Below, in pieces: positions 311-49,264 of a stretch of DNA of 60,563 bases. Source of the DNA: a virus (Duplodnaviria; Caudoviricetes); IMG/VR virus record IMGVR_UViG_3300032227_001790, positions 1 to 60,563 of that record; one strand, written 5' to 3'. A program made the position numbers and the translations under genes. The notes beneath the pieces are model-generated. The model was given only the letters and a program-made list of their open reading frames with translations, made no database searches and was not told the origin of the DNA. Position 1 is the stretch's first letter; each line of letters opens with the position of its first letter.

Positions 311-358
311 TTAAACAAATGGGTCGGAGTATTTATTTGTAATGAAATATCTTATTAC
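311..358 (+). repeat. 48-bp direct repeat, copy 1 (promoter motif plus first codons)
   Basis: TTAAACAAATGGGTCGGAGTATTTATTTGTAATGAAATATCTTATTAC, identical to 653-700. Confidence 0.95.
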
Positions 359-656
359 AGAAGAACAATTGAAATCTTTGGGAAATAGACAAATGATGAA
401 TTTAGTAGGAAGAGTCATTCATAGTGTTTATCCCGAATTTAATAAAAAAGATGTTAAAATTCGAAGAAATGGTGAGAATGAAATATATCATGCGGATGGA
501 ATATTTTTTGCAAGGTATTATTCTTCACAAACGCTTCAATTGAACTACCCAATATATGATTTGTTGGAATCTTTGTTGGGTGAAAATATTGATAACCATA
601 TTGTTGATTGGTTCAATAACGAGTTCGACAAACATGCCGAAGAAGTTTTTTTTTAA
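342..656 (+). CDS. hypothetical protein with MKYLITEEQ leader
   Basis: ORF; TATTTAT just upstream; leader shared with many ORFs here. Confidence 0.8.
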   Translation: MKYLITEEQLKSLGNRQMMNLVGRVIHSVYPEFNKKDVKIRRNGENEIYHADGIFFARYYSSQTLQLNYPIYDLLESLLGENIDNHIVDWFNNEFDKHAEEVFF

Positions 657-11879: not shown

Positions 11880-12452
11880 ATGAAACTAATCATACCACTT
11901 TTTTTTGTCTTCATCTTCCTTTCACCCAAAAAAGAACAAAAAGTAATTTATATTCAACCGTTGGGTAATGTAGAAACCAAATATATAAATCACATTCAAA
12001 TTACATTAAAAAATTTCTACGGATACAATTGTGTAGTTCAAAAAAAACTTGATTTAACCGAAGATTTATTATCAAAGTCAAAAAAAAGATATGACGGATT
12101 GAAAATCCTTAAAAAATTTAGGTCTGATAAAAATATTATCATTATAACCGAGAAAGATATTACAACAAAAAAAGGGATTTACGATGAATGGGGAATATTA
12201 GGACTTGGATTTAGACCTGGTACCGTTTGTGTAGTTTCAACTTATAGAATGAGAAGAAATGTTAATGAACAAAAAATACTTGATAGACTAAAAAAGGTTT
12301 CAATTCATGAGGTTGGACATAACTTAGGATTAGACCACTGTAAAAATGATATTAAGTGTATGATGAACGATGCAAAAGGAACCATAAGTCAAATTGACAA
12401 AGAAGAGTTTTATTTTTGTAAAAAATGTAAAAATCAAATCAATATTAAGTAA
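11880..12452 (+). CDS. archaemetzincin-like (M54) zinc metalloprotease
   Basis: HEVGHNLGLDHC...CMM...FCKKC. Confidence 0.88.
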   Translation: MKLIIPLFFVFIFLSPKKEQKVIYIQPLGNVETKYINHIQITLKNFYGYNCVVQKKLDLTEDLLSKSKKRYDGLKILKKFRSDKNIIIITEKDITTKKGIYDEWGILGLGFRPGTVCVVSTYRMRRNVNEQKILDRLKKVSIHEVGHNLGLDHCKNDIKCMMNDAKGTISQIDKEEFYFCKKCKNQINIK

Positions 12453-13236: not shown

Positions 13237-13268
13237 TTTGTCTGAATGACAAAGTTTATTTACCTTTG
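13237..13268 (+). promoter_or_regulatory. Bacteroidetes-type sigmaA promoter
   Basis: TTTG 13237-13240, 20-nt spacer, TACCTTTG 13261-13268. Confidence 0.75.
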
Positions 13269-13328
13269 TAAAGGATTTGAAACCCATAGGTGATGAAAGA
13301 TACTCAGGTAATTCAAATTCAGTTCTTT

Positions 13329-13404
13329 GGTAGCGGTAGCTCAGTCCCGGTAGAGCAACATCCTGAACAGATGTGTGCCAGAGGTTCGATTCCTCTCCCT
13401 ACCA
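13329..13404 (+). tRNA. tRNA-Phe(GAA), irregular acceptor stem
   Basis: D arm GCTC/GAGC, ACATC-CTGAACA-GATGT, T arm AGAGG-TTCGATT-CCTCT; one extra C in acceptor. Confidence 0.8.
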
Positions 13405-13488
13405 CAAAAAATGTTTTTGTGTCGTCTGTATAGAACCAATGACCTATAAAAGTAAACAGGAGGTCCCACAAAAAATTTTCAAAAAAGA

Positions 13489-13520
13489 TTTGTTTGTTTG
13501 TCGAAACTTACTTATCTTTG
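13489..13520 (+). promoter_or_regulatory. Bacteroidetes-type sigmaA promoter
   Basis: TTTG 13489-13492, 20 nt, TATCTTTG 13513-13520. Confidence 0.75.
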
Positions 13521-13525
13521 TAATG

Positions 13526-13800
13526 AAACAGGACAGCGGAATGTTTATTATAGGTGGTTCCCCATACTCACCTCACCCATATTCTTCTCCGCTTTATAAA
13601 TTAGAAACTAACGGTAATCAAAACAAGGGCAGTTTATGAGAATGGTCATCTCAGTCTTACTGTAAAAGACAAAACTCACCAAGTCTATTTTTTCACTATG
13701 GTTCGTTTTCACAGACTTAAAACAAGAAAACAGAAGTATGTCCTACTTCACGGGTTTCAGAGATTGACCCACCACAAAACAACTCAAAACTTGTCCTGAC
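13526..13800 (+). ncRNA. candidate ~270-nt multi-branched ncRNA
   Basis: Closing helix CAGGACA/TGTCCTG, at least 6 internal hairpins, own promoter and terminator. Confidence 0.65.
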
Positions 13801-13809
13801 GGGGACTTC

Positions 13810-13833
13810 GGGGAGACGACGGTCTCCCCTTTT
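13810..13833 (+). terminator. intrinsic terminator
   Basis: GGGAGAC-GACG-GTCTCCC then T-run. Confidence 0.8.
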
Positions 13834-13866
13834 TGTTATATTTATTGGTAAGTAAATTACCAATAT

Positions 13867-14127
13867 ATGAAAAAATTTTTTGAATCACTTTTCAGTGATG
13901 ACAACAACATCAATGAAAAAGCAGTAATCGGTTTCGGAGCATTTGTTATGATGGTTGTATTTGCAATTGCGGATATAATCACTGGAAGTATGGGAAAAGA
14001 ATTAATAATTCAAGAATTCATCTTCAATTCCTTCTTAATTATGACCTTGGGTTGTTTCGGAATTGCCTCTGTCGACAAGTACATGAACAAAAAGTTTGGA
14101 GACAAAGAAGAAGAAATTTCCGAGTAA
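13867..14127 (+). CDS. small two-TM membrane protein (holin-like)
   Basis: Two hydrophobic helices, charged C-terminus. Confidence 0.6.
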   Translation: MKKFFESLFSDDNNINEKAVIGFGAFVMMVVFAIADIITGSMGKELIIQEFIFNSFLIMTLGCFGIASVDKYMNKKFGDKEEEISE

Positions 14128-44181: not shown

Positions 44182-45855
44182 TTATTGTTTTGAAACCAAA
44201 AACTTATCCAAAACCAAATAGTCTAAATTCCTTTTCAAGAAAGTATTGATTGCGTTGGATGGTGTTTCAACTATTGGTTCATCAGGACCATTGAAACTCG
44301 TATTCAATAAAACGGGAATTCCAGTTGTCATATAAAATGATGTAAGTAAACTATAAAATTTGAAGTTACTATTTTCACTAACACTTTGAAATCTAGATGT
44401 CCCATCAATGTGAACAACTGAAGGTATTTTTTCTTTCCAATCATCAAAAACCTTAGCAGTCACAAGCATGTAGGGTGAGAAAAAGTTTGTATCAAAAATC
44501 TTATTCTGATGTTCATAAATTACTGCAGGTGCAAAGGGTCGATACCACTCTCTCAATTTCACTTCAGAGTTTATATAATTACTTACCCATTTAGAAGTTG
44601 GATTTGCAATTATAGAACGGTTTCCTAATGCTCTCGGGCCTATTTCAGAACCATCTTGAAACCAACCTATTACTTTATTTTCTGATAATAATTCTGAAAC
44701 TTCAAAACATAAAGTTGGAAAATTTTCAAACTCTTGAACATTTAAATTGGGAACTTCATTTATTGCTGAAATAATTTCATTTCTATCATATTTTTTACCC
44801 AAGTAGGGGTTTAAAAAAGTGTATTGTCTTACAAATGCTATTTTTTGATATGCAAACCAAGCACAACCTAACGGAATACCACTGTCATCGGAAGGTGGTA
44901 CAAAATAACATTCATCAAATAACCCTGAATCTAAGATGAGTCTGTTAGAATTACAGTTGAGAAAAGACCCACCAGCAGTACATACATTTTTTGATGATGT
45001 TAAATTCTTTGCAATTCTTGACAATATGACAGATGCTTGCTCCTGTTCTCTTTGATAAAGTCCTGCGACATCGGATTTAGATTGGAAATCTGAATTCCAT
45101 ATCACGTTTGGAAGAATTCTTATATTTGGTATATGAATGTCATTTTCCAATTCTTGTACAAGGTTTGGAATCTCATCTAATTTTTTTTGATTAGCGTATG
45201 AAGCCATACCCATAAGTTTTCCTGCACTCCAACTATGAGTTGTTTGTTCGTAAACTAATTGCAAAGAACCTTCAGAATATCTGGCACCCAAAGACGTACA
45301 TTCCTCTTCTTCAGTATCCCAAAGATGTGGTATTTTTATCCATTTTTTAAAAACTTCTGAGTAAGAATCTCTTTTGAAATGATAAATTGAAATACCCTCG
45401 GTTATATGTCTTCCTTCAGGTAATTCGGATATATCTAAATCATAAAACTGAGACAGTTTTGTTTTAGAGTTGTATATACTTCCAGAAGCGTCTGCAACAA
45501 TTACCGCAGCCTCGTCAAAGTTTGAACTGTAGAAGCTAGAATATGCATGTGCTAGATGGTGTGGAACAAAAAGTAGTTTATCATCCAAACTATATCCTAA
45601 AATTGAGGCCATTTTTTCATCAACATCATCAACCTCTTCTGTTGTACTATATGCCCATAAATTTATGTCTGAGAATTTTAGTCCCGAATGATTCAAACAA
45701 TATTGTATGGATTCAATAGGTATTTGCCCTCCCATGTATCCACCATCGTGTTTAATTCGACTAAGTCTTTCTTGAGTTATACCTATTATAACTTCTCCGT
45801 CAACAATCAGAACAGCACCTCTGTCGTGACCTACGCTGAACCCAATTATTTTCAT
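44182..45855 (-). CDS. NodU/CmcH-type carbamoyltransferase
   Basis: HD, ERLSRIKH, HHLAHA, GKLMG, GPRALGNRS, RPFAP, LNTSFN. Confidence 0.95.
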   Translation of the reverse strand: MKIIGFSVGHDRGAVLIVDGEVIIGITQERLSRIKHDGGYMGGQIPIESIQYCLNHSGLKFSDINLWAYSTTEEVDDVDEKMASILGYSLDDKLLFVPHHLAHAYSSFYSSNFDEAAVIVADASGSIYNSKTKLSQFYDLDISELPEGRHITEGISIYHFKRDSYSEVFKKWIKIPHLWDTEEEECTSLGARYSEGSLQLVYEQTTHSWSAGKLMGMASYANQKKLDEIPNLVQELENDIHIPNIRILPNVIWNSDFQSKSDVAGLYQREQEQASVILSRIAKNLTSSKNVCTAGGSFLNCNSNRLILDSGLFDECYFVPPSDDSGIPLGCAWFAYQKIAFVRQYTFLNPYLGKKYDRNEIISAINEVPNLNVQEFENFPTLCFEVSELLSENKVIGWFQDGSEIGPRALGNRSIIANPTSKWVSNYINSEVKLREWYRPFAPAVIYEHQNKIFDTNFFSPYMLVTAKVFDDWKEKIPSVVHIDGTSRFQSVSENSNFKFYSLLTSFYMTTGIPVLLNTSFNGPDEPIVETPSNAINTFLKRNLDYLVLDKFLVSKQ

Positions 45856-48408: not shown

Positions 48409-49119
48409 ATGGAACTATTCACACCGGAAGATAAAAAAACCCTAAGAATTACGTCACGATATTTAGAGTCTCTCGGAATTTCATCGGGGTTAGTGGAATT
48501 TAATTTCTATGATGGGTCAGACGATGTTGACTTAGATAAAGAAATTCCTTTTGGGCAACATGAAAAGAATTTTAGTAATCATCATAACATAGAGGTTCCT
48601 GAACCTATCTACCCTATAATTGATAAAATTTTAATGTATTGTAACGATAAAATGACATTCAAAAATGTTTATGTCGACTATTTGAACTATGTTACGCTAT
48701 CGATAGATATTGATGTTGATATGAAGATGGTATCCGCGACCAAATACTGTGGATATACTGATTCTGGTAGTGAAGATGGAACCACATGGGATTCACAAGA
48801 AGATGAAGAGGTTAAAAAATTACTTGAAATGCTTTCAGAAGAAAGTGAGGATTCGAGTTTATTAGTGTTAAGATATAATGGTGGTGGTGATAGTGGATAT
48901 ATTGAGGACAATTTTGAAAATCAATTGGATGTTCCTGCATCAGTTGAAGATTGGTGTTACCAACAATTAGAAAACAATCATGGCGGTTGGGAAATAAATG
49001 AAGGCTCTTCAGGATATTTTGAGTTTGACCTAAAAAATGGTTTAATTCATTTGTACCATACCATGAACGAAGAGTTCAATGTTAGTGACACTATTTTTGA
49101 AGAAAGTTTTGCAAAATAA
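48409..49119 (+). CDS. DUF6878-like acidic protein
   Basis: YNGGGDSGYIE and GWEINEGSSG. Confidence 0.7.
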   Translation: MELFTPEDKKTLRITSRYLESLGISSGLVEFNFYDGSDDVDLDKEIPFGQHEKNFSNHHNIEVPEPIYPIIDKILMYCNDKMTFKNVYVDYLNYVTLSIDIDVDMKMVSATKYCGYTDSGSEDGTTWDSQEDEEVKKLLEMLSEESEDSSLLVLRYNGGGDSGYIEDNFENQLDVPASVEDWCYQQLENNHGGWEINEGSSGYFEFDLKNGLIHLYHTMNEEFNVSDTIFEESFAK

Positions 49120-49138
49120 AATACTTTTCTTATCTTTG
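49108..49138 (+). promoter_or_regulatory. Bacteroidetes-type promoter for tRNA-Leu
   Basis: TTTG 49108-49111, 19 nt, TATCTTTG 49131-49138. Confidence 0.75.
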
Positions 49139-49151
49139 TAATCAATTAAAT

Positions 49152-49264
49152 ACCTTGGTGGTGGAATAGGTAGACACGCTGGACTTACGGGAGCTTCAAC
49201 TCGTCGCACCGTAAAATCCTGTGAACCGAAAAAGTTCGTGCGGGTTCGATTCCCGCCTGAGGTA
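49152..49264 (+). tRNA. tRNA-Leu(TAA) with 26-nt insertion in the anticodon loop
   Basis: ACCTTGG/CTGAGGT acceptor, Leu-type D loop and variable arm; GGACTT[26 nt]AAAATCC. Confidence 0.85.

What the first reader, a model, noticed from the sequence alone, without database searches (positions are those of the whole stretch)
13526..13833. Independent ~270-nt multi-branched non-coding RNA
Seen: promoter (13489-13520) and terminator (13810-13833) bracket a region without a convincing ORF. Its ends pair (CAGGACA 13529-35 / TGTCCTG 13792-98). Internal helices: AGCGGA/TCCGCT, AGGTG/CACCT, TGAGA/TCTCA, GTCTT/AAGAC, AAGTCT/AGACTT, GAAGTA/TACTTC and GGGT/ACCC, joined by A-rich linkers. I do not see tmRNA, RNase P, SRP or 6S hallmarks. 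Inference: an undescribed phage ncRNA class (scaffold, decoy or anti-defence RNA).
Basis: partly seen in the sequence, partly recalled or inferred. Interest (0 to 1): 0.7.

Follow-up and report, generated by a model that had tools for sequence, protein, structure and literature searches.

The report
New pseudoknotted RNA of jumbo phages
A very large lake phage carries a separate gene for a 305-base RNA that folds into an intricate, knot-rich shape, matches no catalogued RNA family and sits beside an unusual tRNA gene, which makes it a good candidate for a new kind of functional RNA.

Summary
The feature is real. Window 13528(+/-3)-13834 (+) is a stand-alone non-coding RNA gene. It has a Bacteroidetes-type promoter (13489-13520) and an intrinsic terminator (13810-13834). 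No reading frame is conserved.

Homologues turned up in IMG/VR and metagenome contigs: 85 distinct full-length sequences of 296-311 nt were analysed, with median identity 67%. None was found in 185,579 prokaryote species genomes. No match appeared in Rfam 15, and ARAGORN called no tmRNA.

The terminal closing stem does not. The 5' GGACA instead pairs with the loop of an internal hairpin, with compensatory changes, and the proposed 3' partner is half of a separately covarying hairpin. The fold is therefore a chain of four H-type pseudoknots closed by a 5'-end/loop pairing. It also has a nearly invariant T-arm-like hairpin and two 3' hairpins with GACG tetraloops.

The gene lies in a conserved RNA module: leader hairpin, atypical tRNA-Phe, then this RNA. 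Related complete 317-321 kb phages carry one copy each and a canonical tmRNA at another locus. Contigs from lake RNA libraries cover the gene.

Function is unknown. My best guess, by inference only, is an early trans-acting folded RNA (protein-binding scaffold or decoy, or a ribozyme) tied to tRNA or translation.

The parts
13489..13520 (+). Bacteroidetes-type promoter (-33 TTTG, -7 TATCTTTG) of the RNA gene
   Evidence: Exact pattern match. The pattern occurs 13 times in the window against 4.76 expected, 0 of 100 shuffles. The -7 element is conserved in the homologues. The consensus itself is recalled from the literature.
13528..13834 (+). The non-coding RNA. The 5' end is uncertain by about 3 nt; the 3' end is the U-run.
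   Evidence: 85 distinct homologues of 296-311 nt. Structure pair counts. An RNA-library contig lies on 13530-13799.
13531..13535 (+). PK-A 5' strand, GGACA. It pairs with 13739-13743.
   Evidence: 97.1% of cells paired. Compensatory variants have GGAUGG with CCAUCC.
13536..13540 (+). P1 5' strand, GCGGA. It pairs with 13588-13592.
   Evidence: 96% paired. Variants AGAGGG/CCCUCU and AGAGAG/CUCUCU occur. 0 of 2000 permutations.
13552..13573 (+). P2, the T-arm-like hairpin AGGUG / CACCU, with a 12-nt loop GUUCCCCAUACU (13557-13568)
   Evidence: The 20-mer is exact in 25 of 33 loci found with a pattern that does not include it. The variants are loop C to U, loop C to A, and a stem A to G that keeps a U.G pair.
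13575..13577 (+). PK-B 5' strand. It lies inside the P1 loop and pairs with 13613-13615.
   Evidence: It is weak in the window (3 bp), but at least 4 bp form in 80 of 85 sequences, with 55 distinct duplexes. 0 of 2000 permutations.
13588..13592 (+). P1 3' strand, UCCGC
13595..13606 (+). Conserved unpaired linker UAUAAAUUAGAA
   Evidence: Invariant and nearly invariant columns.
13613..13615 (+). PK-B 3' strand
13621..13629 (+). Invariant junction AAACA(A/C)GGG
   Evidence: Invariant columns A94-G102.
13630..13633 (+). PK-C 5' strand, CAGU. It pairs with ACUG at 13659-13662 in the P4 loop.
   Evidence: Other sequences carry AGG/CCU, AGGG/CCCU or AGGCC/GGCCU. 0 of 2000 permutations.
13638..13652 (+). 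P3 hairpin, GAGA / UCUC
   Evidence: All 4 pairs show double changes, but the permutation test is not significant. At least 3 bp form in 85 of 85 sequences.
13654..13670 (+). P4 hairpin, GUCUU / AAGAC. Its loop holds the PK-C 3' strand.
   Evidence: 0 of 2000 permutations. At least 4 bp in 82 of 85 sequences.
13681..13686 (+). PK-D 5' strand, AAGUCU. It pairs with AGACUU at 13713-13718 in the P6 loop.
   Evidence: Other sequences carry GUCU/AGAC, GCCU/AGGC, GACU/AGUC or UCAU/AUGA. 36 of 2000 permutations.
13705..13731 (+). P6 hairpin, GUUUUC / GAAAAC. Its loop holds the PK-D 3' strand.
   Evidence: 0 of 2000 permutations. At least 5 bp in 85 of 85 sequences.
13733..13749 (+). P7 hairpin, GAAGUA / UACUUC. 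Its loop UGUCC (13739-13743) is the PK-A 3' strand.
   Evidence: All 6 pairs show double changes. 0 of 2000 permutations.
13752..13770 (+). P8 hairpin, GGGU / ACCC. Its loop holds the PK-E 5' strand, GAG-A-UUG (13760-13766).
   Evidence: 37 of 2000 permutations. At least 4 bp in 84 of 85 sequences.
13780..13785 (+). PK-E 3' strand, CAACUC
   Evidence: Other sequences carry GGUCU/AGACC, UGGUA/UACCA, GGUGU/ACACC or AUGAUU/AAUCAU. 0 of 2000 permutations.
13793..13806 (+). P9 hairpin, GUCCU-GACG-GGGAC
   Evidence: 98.8% paired. At columns 300/307, C-G occurs 20 times and U-A 15 times. 0 of 2000 permutations.
13810..13834 (+). P10, the intrinsic terminator GGGGAGAC-GACG-GUCUCCCC followed by U5
   Evidence: Terminator scan. 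100% paired, and 6 of 8 pairs show double changes.
13329..13405 (+). tRNA-Phe(GAA), the upstream partner in the conserved RNA module
   Evidence: ARAGORN and Rfam at 42.1 bits. A tRNA-like T-arm was found upstream of the RNA in 87 of 91 distinct upstream contexts.
13273..13320 (+). Conserved hairpin in the tRNA leader, with the core GGYGAUGAAAGAUACUCRG, behind a second promoter at 13237-13268
   Evidence: The motif is present in 86 of 134 loci that have at least 480 nt upstream. Promoter.

Best explanation
WHAT IT IS (SHOWN). Window 13528-13834 (+) is a stand-alone gene for a ~305-nt non-coding RNA of a lake jumbo phage. The window is an IMG/VR virus record estimated 20% complete, and complete relatives are 317-321 kb. 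The RNA belongs to a family absent from Rfam.

It folds into ten helices and five cross-pairings:
- P1 encloses a nearly invariant T-arm-like hairpin (P2), and its loop pairs downstream (PK-B).
- Three further H-type pseudoknots follow (PK-C, PK-D, PK-E).
- The 5' end GGACA pairs with the loop of hairpin P7 (PK-A), which closes the first two thirds of the molecule into a ring.
- Two 3' hairpins carry identical GACG tetraloops. The second is the terminator.

The gene is part of a conserved RNA-gene module (leader hairpin, tRNA-Phe(GAA), this RNA), and the flanking protein genes differ between phages.

HOW IT WORKS (INFERRED).
- The module's promoters fit the Bacteroidetes consensus. Neighbouring protein genes carry a different motif, TATTTAT. 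I therefore read the RNA as transcribed by host polymerase early in infection.
- It would act in trans as a compactly folded RNA.
- Most likely it binds a host or phage protein through the invariant P2 loop and the twin GACG loops, as a scaffold or decoy connected with tRNA or translation.

MY ODDS. Real, selected, independently transcribed structured RNA of a new family: about 0.9. Trans-acting protein-binding scaffold or decoy, as opposed to the rivals below: about 0.35.
For: - FAMILY. nhmmer found homologues next to a relative of the upstream 106-aa ORF in 9 of 11 loci, at E about 1e-30. Pattern scans gave 28 viral stretches and 108 metagenome stretches. Two patterns that do not use P2 added 9 more viral loci. 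In all, 85 distinct full-length sequences of 296-311 nt were analysed, with identity 50% at the lowest and 67% at the median.
- STRUCTURE, tool count. On a structure-blind MAFFT alignment of 35 sequences, 78.6% of cells form standard pairs. With partners slid by 1-3 columns the figure is 42.5-53.1%. 49 of 72 pairs show changes on both sides. 0 of 500 shuffles reach any of the five measures.
- STRUCTURE, my test. Cognate segments pair better than non-cognate ones in 29 representatives. The result is 0 of 2000 permutations for P1, PK-B, PK-C, P4, P6, P7, PK-E, P9 and P10, and 26-37 of 2000 for PK-A, PK-D and P8.
- Every one of the 13 helices tested forms at least 3 bp in at least 83 of 85 sequences.
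- PK-A. Variants with 5' GGAUGG have the loop CCAUCC.
- STRAND. Many G.U pairs would be A.C mismatches on the other strand, for example UG:20 with CG:15 at columns 301/306 and GC:16 with GU:14 at columns 224/235.
- NOT CODING..
- OWN GENE. Promoter and terminator. Among 131 loci the downstream ORFs have 43 different N-terminal hexapeptides and belong to several unrelated types.
- COPY NUMBER. One match in each of 3 of 3 complete genomes.
- RNA LIBRARIES. Contigs of 4 lake or freshwater RNA runs (4 studies) lie on the gene. A 269-nt contig covers 13530-13799. Two contigs from two studies are identical to the window over 13620-13800 and 13620-13803.
- MODULE. A tRNA-like T-arm lies upstream in 87 of 91 distinct contexts. 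The leader hairpin is present in 86 of 134 loci.
- GACG HAIRPINS. Only two GACG-tetraloop hairpins with stems of 5 or more pairs exist in the 60.5-kb window, and both are in this RNA.
Against: - Nothing here shows what the RNA binds or does. The scaffold or decoy reading rests only on anatomy and neighbourhood.
- The libraries that cover the gene may hold DNA, and contigs cannot show ends, strand or level. Some contigs run on into promoter-like sequence upstream (table 7).
- The sequences were collected with a pattern inside P2. P2's invariance is therefore partly by design, although 25 of 33 loci found independently have it exact.
- P3 is not separable from non-cognate pairs (1133 of 2000 permutations).
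- PK-B is only 3 bp in the window itself.
- The shuffle control ignores relatedness of the sequences.
- The family is confined to one phage clade. Two more distant loci, L001 and L002, lack it near the same neighbour gene. Depth of conservation is therefore modest.
- Early expression is inferred from the promoter type alone.
Confidence: 0.55

Rival explanations
1. It is a trans-acting ribozyme, for instance one that matures the unusual neighbouring tRNA-Phe, which carries a leader hairpin and, in most relatives, a hairpin inserted in the D-loop.
For: - Invariant nucleotides lie in junctions and pseudoknots, and length is strictly conserved at 296-311 nt, as in catalytic or ligand-binding cores.
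- Synteny with an atypical tRNA-Phe is constant.
- Small ribozymes beside phage tRNAs are known (PMC10879173, abstract read).
- No RNase P RNA is found in these phage genomes.
Against: - No catalysis was tested and no known ribozyme model matches.
- The window's own tRNA-Phe has no D-loop insertion, yet the RNA is present.
- The host supplies RNase P.
- A promoter, and in many loci a hairpin followed by Ts, separates the tRNA from the RNA.
Confidence: 0.12
2. It is an RNA that assembles with copies of itself into an RNA-only particle, a small counterpart of ROOL or GOLLD.
For: - It is phage-borne, comes from lakes, lies next to a tRNA gene and has an ornate fold.
- Free invariant loops (the P2 loop and the twin GACG loops) could make contacts between molecules.
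- GOLLD and ROOL form RNA-only complexes (bioRxiv 10.1101/2024.12.08.627333; I saw only the search listing and the start of the abstract).
Against: - Rfam 15, which I recall holds the GOLLD and ROOL models, gave no match to this RNA.
- It is far smaller than I recall those RNAs to be (about 500-800 nt).
- I saw no self-complementary conserved loop.
- Nothing was tested.
Confidence: 0.08
3. It is a cis-acting leader (riboswitch, T-box-like element or attenuator) that controls the gene downstream through the terminator at 13810-13834.
For: - A terminator is followed, at a median of 32 nt, by an ORF on the same strand.
- The P2 loop contains UUC, the codon read by the neighbouring tRNA-Phe(GAA).
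Against: - The downstream genes differ between phages: 43 different N-termini among 131 loci, of several unrelated types.
- Those genes have their own TATTTAT gene-start motif (126 of 131 loci).
- I saw no alternative anti-terminator pairing that is conserved.
- Variants have UUA or UUU in the loop while the tRNA keeps GAA.
- No family of Rfam 15, which I recall holds the T-box and the known riboswitch classes, matched.
Confidence: 0.03
4. It is a divergent tmRNA or RNase P RNA that the standard models miss.
For: A series of H-type pseudoknots closed into a ring recalls tmRNA PK1-PK4. The size is similar, and huge phages do encode tmRNAs.
Against: - ARAGORN and the Rfam models find nothing here.
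- There is no acceptor pairing of the two ends and no conserved tag frame.
- The related phage records carry a canonical tmRNA at another locus: 76.4 bits in 4 of 5 records, about 56 kb away in G001.
- No SmpB gene was found in the phage records.
Confidence: 0.02

Closest known systems
GOLLD and ROOL RNAs (large ornate RNAs of phages and prophages, unknown function)
   Same: Phage-borne, found in lake metagenomes, close to tRNA genes, with many conserved helices and pseudoknots and an unknown role.
   Different: Rfam 15, which I recall holds the GOLLD and ROOL models, gave no match to this RNA. This RNA is 296-311 nt, against the several hundred more nucleotides I recall for those. Self-assembly was not tested here.
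tmRNA
   Same: About 300-400 nt. Several H-type pseudoknots in series form a closed ring. Also encoded by these jumbo phages.
   Different: No tRNA-like domain, no tag reading frame, and no match to ARAGORN or Rfam. The same phage genomes have a canonical tmRNA at another locus.
HDV-like theta ribozymes next to phage tRNAs (PMC10879173, abstract read)
   Same: Pseudoknotted phage RNAs that sit beside tRNA genes and are proposed to serve tRNA maturation or regulation.
   Different: Those are minimal self-cleaving ribozymes whose cleavage site abuts the tRNA. This RNA is about 305 nt and starts about 120 nt after the tRNA, behind its own promoter. No self-cleavage is shown.
Small stable RNAs in the T4 tRNA gene cluster (recalled from memory, not checked in any call)
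   Same: Stable phage RNAs of unknown role that are encoded together with phage tRNAs.
   Different: As I recall they are shorter, and no multi-pseudoknot fold has been reported for them. No sequence comparison was made here.

Membership tests
tmRNA | A tRNA-like domain: the 5' and 3' ends pair as an acceptor stem, with a T-arm and a 3' CCA | tested here: not met
   ARAGORN calls no tmRNA. The Rfam tmRNA models give no match. The 5' end pairs with an internal loop, and end-to-end pairing is not conserved.
tmRNA | A conserved tag reading frame | tested here: not met
   No conserved frame. ORFs from the 5' AUG run 5-90 codons, and the indel phase is scattered between anchors.
tmRNA | A series of H-type pseudoknots | tested here: met
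   PK-B, PK-C, PK-D and PK-E.
tmRNA | It is the genome's tmRNA locus | tested here: not met
   A canonical tmRNA (76.4 bits, cut-off 47) lies elsewhere in 4 of 5 related records. This RNA is at G001:177975-178097.
RNase P RNA | A match to the bacterial RNase P covariance models | tested here: not met
   No match at the gathering thresholds or at E<=10 in the region. RF00010 matched in 0 of 5 records.
RNase P RNA | The universally conserved P4 nucleotides | not tested
   I compared only against a recalled consensus, by eye, and saw no resemblance. No formal test was made.
T-box leader | A specifier codon that matches the anticodon of the tRNA it senses | tested here: not met
   The UUC in the P2 loop becomes UUA or UUU in variants while the neighbouring tRNA keeps GAA. 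No family of Rfam 15, which I recall includes the T-box, matched the region at E<=10 beyond chance rows.
T-box leader / riboswitch | It travels with the gene it regulates | tested here: not met
   Downstream ORFs have 43 different N-termini among 131 loci and their own TATTTAT motif.
GOLLD / ROOL | A match to the family covariance model | tested here: not met
   No family of Rfam 15, which I recall includes GOLLD and ROOL, matched the region.
GOLLD / ROOL | Phage-borne and near tRNA genes | tested here: met
   All carriers are viral or metagenome contigs. No true copy was found in 185,579 species genomes. A tRNA-like T-arm lies upstream in 87 of 91 contexts.
GOLLD / ROOL | Forms RNA-only multimers | not testable with these tools
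   This needs native gels or cryo-EM.
HDV-like (theta) ribozyme | A nested double pseudoknot whose cleavage site abuts the tRNA | tested here: not met
   The strand order differs: the hairpin lies between the first strands of P1 and PK-B. The RNA starts about 120 nt after the tRNA, behind its own promoter.
Intrinsic terminator (P10 only) | A G+C-rich hairpin followed by a U-run | tested here: met
   The stem is 100% paired with 6 covarying pairs.

The most novel reading that the evidence does not exclude
It is a new class of large functional RNA that works together with the atypical phage tRNA-Phe. It could be a trans-acting ribozyme for that tRNA's maturation. It could also be a mimic of the tRNA elbow, with the T-arm-like P2 docking on the GACG(G) loops, that decoys a host tRNA-targeting defence or processing enzyme early in infection.
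Probability: 0.2. Interest if true: 0.9.

Novelty: categorically new. Interest (0 to 1): 0.74.

Why it matters
- Complex-folded RNAs of several hundred nucleotides with unknown jobs are rare. The few that are known (RNase P, tmRNA, and OLE, GOLLD, ROOL and raiA) have each opened new biology.
- This one has five cross-pairings in about 305 nt and a strictly kept length.
- It also has an almost invariant T-arm-like hairpin.
- It has a fixed place beside an odd tRNA-Phe in jumbo phages that also carry their own tmRNA and many tRNAs.
- That points to an unexplored, RNA-based layer of how large phages take over or protect translation.
- It is short enough to transcribe, probe and image directly, so the question can be tested without first culturing the phage.
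- Caveat on 'new': the family is absent from Rfam 15, and my four literature searches turned up no description of it. The unnamed candidate lists of PMC10690425 could not be checked.

Tried and rejected
REJECTED READINGS
- tmRNA: see the membership test. It fell finally when a canonical tmRNA was found elsewhere in related genomes.
- RNase P RNA.
- T-box or codon-anticodon sensing of tRNA-Phe.
- Coding for a small protein.
- Cis-regulation of the downstream gene.
- GACG loops as a general terminator style of this phage: no, only this RNA has them.
- The P2 loop pairing with the invariant GGG at 13627-13629, or with 16S or 5S rRNA look-alikes. I considered these only by eye and from recalled sequences. 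Both sides are invariant, so no test is possible, and I dropped them.
It is possible in the window type (P9 = GUCC/GGAC) but impossible in relatives with P9 = UCUC/GAGA.

LED NOWHERE
- blastn against GenBank phages matched only the tRNA.
- Relatives of the 352-aa downstream ORF: none.
- tblastn of a 629-aa window protein found only a peptidase domain in unrelated phages, so no cultured relative or host came of it.
- Pfam and PHROGs on the neighbouring genes gave nothing RNA-related next to the gene.
- A naive all-against-all column covariation scan was too noisy to use.
- A profile search of L001 and L002 gave no hit.

NOT TO BE READ AS EVIDENCE
- In the four runs I laid, no contig lay on 13316-13447 or 13822-13900. 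All contigs stopped at 13796-13803.
- The relaxed pattern in genome contigs gave 4 stretches. All are chance matches in G+C-rich sequence with none of the family's other motifs in place: no GGACAG upstream in any, and a lone ACA(A/C)GGG in one.

NOT DONE
- I did not attempt a full-length covariance model.
- R-scape is not installed.
- Structure-aware realignment was replaced by the cognate versus non-cognate test.
- Supplements of PMC10690425 were closed, so I cannot say whether this RNA is among its candidates.
Full report
WHAT IS AT THE PLACE

The window is an IMG/VR virus record of 60,563 nt, estimated 20% complete. Relatives that carry the same element include three complete genomes of 317-321 kb, two of them classed with direct terminal repeats. 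So this is a jumbo phage.

Between a tRNA-Phe(GAA) gene (13329-13405) and an 86-aa ORF (13867-14127) lie about 460 nt without a credible ORF. Only two 33-aa ORFs fall inside the flagged stretch.

That pattern occurs 13 times in the window against 4.76 +/- 2.12 expected, and 0 of 100 shuffles reach 13. It stands in front of several tRNA genes too. That this is the Bacteroidetes promoter consensus is recalled knowledge, not a call. The generic sigma-70 scan shows no enrichment.

IS IT KNOWN?

- Rfam 15 at gathering thresholds finds only tRNAs in the window (11 matches).
- At E<=10 on 13250-13950, nothing but the tRNA rises above chance.
- Five homologous loci give no match at the gathering thresholds, and L004 at E<=5 gives only terminator-like noise.
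- ARAGORN reports no tmRNA.
- GenBank phages match only the tRNA part.
- Four literature searches turned up no description of such an RNA.
- A 2023 survey lists 8,495 unnamed candidate structured RNAs from IMG/VR (PMC10690425, passages read).

HOMOLOGUES

- A relative of the upstream 106-aa ORF was found in 11 viral loci. nhmmer found the RNA beside it in 9 of the 11, at E about 1e-30.
- A 20-mer in the most conserved hairpin then gave 28 viral stretches, 108 metagenome stretches and none in one genome for each of 185,579 prokaryote species.
- A relaxed form gave four chance matches there.
- Two scans with patterns outside that hairpin added 9 viral loci.
- In all, 85 distinct full-length sequences were analysed, plus 4 variants seen. 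They are 296-311 nt long, with pairwise identity 50% at the lowest and 67% at the median.
- Each of 3 of 3 complete genomes holds one copy.
- Two more distant loci (L001, L002) have no copy near the same neighbour gene.

STRUCTURE

Reading the aligned segments gave the following model in window coordinates.

- PK-A: 13531-35 with 13739-43
- P1: 13536-40 with 13588-92
- P2: 13552-56 with 13569-73, loop GUUCCCCAUACU
- PK-B: 13575-77 with 13613-15
- PK-C: 13630-33 with 13659-62
- P3: 13638-41 with 13649-52
- P4: 13654-58 with 13666-70
- PK-D: 13681-86 with 13713-18
- P6: 13705-10 with 13726-31
- P7: 13733-38 with 13744-49
- P8: 13752-55 with 13767-70
- PK-E: 13760-66 with 13780-85
- P9: 13793-97 with 13802-06
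- P10: 13810-17 with 13822-29

PK-B, PK-C, PK-D and PK-E are classical H-type pseudoknots. PK-A joins the 5' end to the P7 loop.

Three tests support the model.

(i) Pair counts on a structure-blind MAFFT alignment of 35 diverse members. 78.6% of cells pair, against 42.5-53.1% with slid partners. 49 of 72 pairs change on both sides. 0 of 500 shuffles reach any measure. P9 is 98.8% paired, P10 100%, PK-A 97.1% and P1 96%. The low values for P4 (48%) and PK-E (39-45%) reflect misaligned variable segments.

(ii) An alignment-free test on 29 representatives that share less than 88% identity. Duplex energy between a sequence's own two segments was compared with segments swapped between sequences. 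The result is 0 of 2000 permutations for P1, PK-B, PK-C, P4, P6, P7, PK-E, P9 and P10, 26-37 of 2000 for PK-A, PK-D and P8, and not significant for P3 at 1133 of 2000.

(iii) All 13 tested helices form at least 3 bp in at least 83 of 85 sequences.

PK-A is mostly invariant, but the variants L059, L105 and L137 carry GGAUGG with CCAUCC.

The frequent G.U pairs fix the + strand as the folded one.

Seven of the eight are part of this model. The eighth, the closing stem 13529-35 / 13792-98, is strong in the window (-11.4 kcal/mol) but absent from the family: mean -4.56 against -4.38 for non-cognate pairs, 141 of 2000 permutations. Its 3' half is the 5' strand of P9, which in 15 of 35 aligned sequences is UCUC/GAGA instead of GUCC/GGAC.

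NOT CODING, NOT A LEADER

- No frame is conserved.
- The gene downstream differs between phages: 43 different N-terminal hexapeptides among 131 loci, of several unrelated types (MAT.., MACNYY, MKKFF., MPFKYL and others).
- That gene is preceded by TATTTAT in 126 of 131 loci.
- In the window the same motif stands 4-22 nt before many start codons. 30 of 54 occurrences have an ORF of 60 aa or more starting within 45 nt. It is therefore a general gene-start signal of the phage, not part of the RNA.

NEIGHBOURHOOD

- Upstream, 87 of 91 distinct contexts contain a tRNA-like T-arm.
- The sequences printed there read as tRNA-Phe(GAA) genes with a covarying hairpin inserted in the D-loop. ARAGORN called a tRNA in only 29 of the 91, and named it Phe in 11. 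Rfam scores one such gene at 22.7 bits, below its cut-off of 29.
- The window's own tRNA-Phe lacks the insertion.
- Further upstream lies a conserved hairpin of about 48 nt (13273-13320), with the core GGYGAUGAAAGAUACUCRG, behind another promoter of the same type (86 of 134 loci).
- The module hairpin - tRNA-Phe - RNA is kept while the flanking protein genes vary.

RNA LIBRARIES

Contigs of four lake or freshwater RNA runs from four studies lie on the gene.

- A 269-nt contig covers 13530-13799.
- Two contigs from two studies are identical to the window over 13620-13800 and 13620-13803.
- Short contigs of relatives cover the 5' domain at word depths up to about 500.
- These are contigs, and the libraries may contain DNA. 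This shows presence in RNA libraries. It does not show ends or level.

WHAT IT IS NOT

- tmRNA: there is no tRNA-like domain and no tag frame. Related genomes have a canonical tmRNA (76.4 bits) elsewhere in 4 of 5 records, and no SmpB gene.
- RNase P RNA: no match.
- T-box: the loop UUC changes to UUA or UUU while the tRNA keeps GAA.

MECHANISM

Shown: a selected, compact, pseudoknotted fold on the + strand, an own promoter and terminator, and a fixed partnership with a tRNA-Phe gene.

Inferred:
- Transcription is by host polymerase early in infection, judged from the promoter type.
- Action is in trans.
- Recognition runs through the invariant P2 loop and the twin GACG tetraloops. These are the only two such hairpins with stems of 5 or more pairs in the window.

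I rank the readings as follows: a protein-binding scaffold or decoy linked to tRNA or translation first (about 0.35), then ribozyme (0.12), self-assembling RNA (0.08), cis-leader (0.03), and divergent tmRNA or RNase P (0.02). The remainder is unassigned.

VERDICT

This is a real and, as far as I can check, uncatalogued family of structured phage RNA.

Noticed in passing
Loci L003-L161, about 100-200 nt upstream of the RNA, e.g. L004:4685-4772; window 13329-13405: Most relatives have a tRNA-Phe(GAA)-like gene with a covarying hairpin of 12-20 nt inserted in the D-loop, just before the GG. The anticodon-loop flanks vary (CUGAACA, AUGAAAG, UUGAAAA and others). ARAGORN misses most of them, and Rfam scores one at 22.7 bits, below its cut-off. 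The window's own copy has a normal D-loop.
   Followed up: partly
window 13273-13320, with a promoter at 13237-13268: A conserved hairpin of about 48 nt lies in the leader of the tRNA-Phe transcript. The outer stem covaries and the core GGYGAUGAAAGAUACUCRG is nearly invariant (86 of 134 loci). Its loop shares AUACUC with the P2 loop of the large RNA. A contig of RNA run X12 lies on 13265-13305.
   Followed up: partly
G001:121730-122125, G002 and G003:125442-125837, G004:161079-161474: Related jumbo-phage records encode a canonical tmRNA (Rfam RF00023, 76.4 bits). No SmpB gene was found in the same records.
   Followed up: no
whole window, e.g. 330, 672, 13839, 14170, 15160, 54437(-), 57972(-): The motif TATTTAT stands 4-22 nt before the start codons of many ORFs. 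30 of 54 occurrences have an ORF of 60 aa or more starting within 45 nt. It is likely a phage-specific promoter or gene-start signal, distinct from the TTTG/TAnnTTTG promoters that precede the RNA genes.
   Followed up: partly
window 49152-49264 (+): A 113-nt match to the Rfam tRNA model (39.7 bits) that ARAGORN does not call. It may be another tRNA with an insertion or an intron. A promoter-pattern match lies just before it, at 49108-49138.
   Followed up: no
window 318-360 and 660-702: Two nearly identical gene starts (the same roughly 40 nt around TATTTAT and the ATG) suggest tandem paralogous genes at 342-656 and 684-1223.
   Followed up: no
window 33388-34695 (-), 44182-45855 (-), 31231-32529 (-), 11880-12452 (+): The window encodes a T4 Rnl1-like RNA ligase (phrog_562, E = 1.5e-57), a Nol-like carbamoyltransferase, a thymidylate synthase and an M54-like zinc peptidase. 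The RNA ligase fits a phage that invests in tRNA repair.
   Followed up: no
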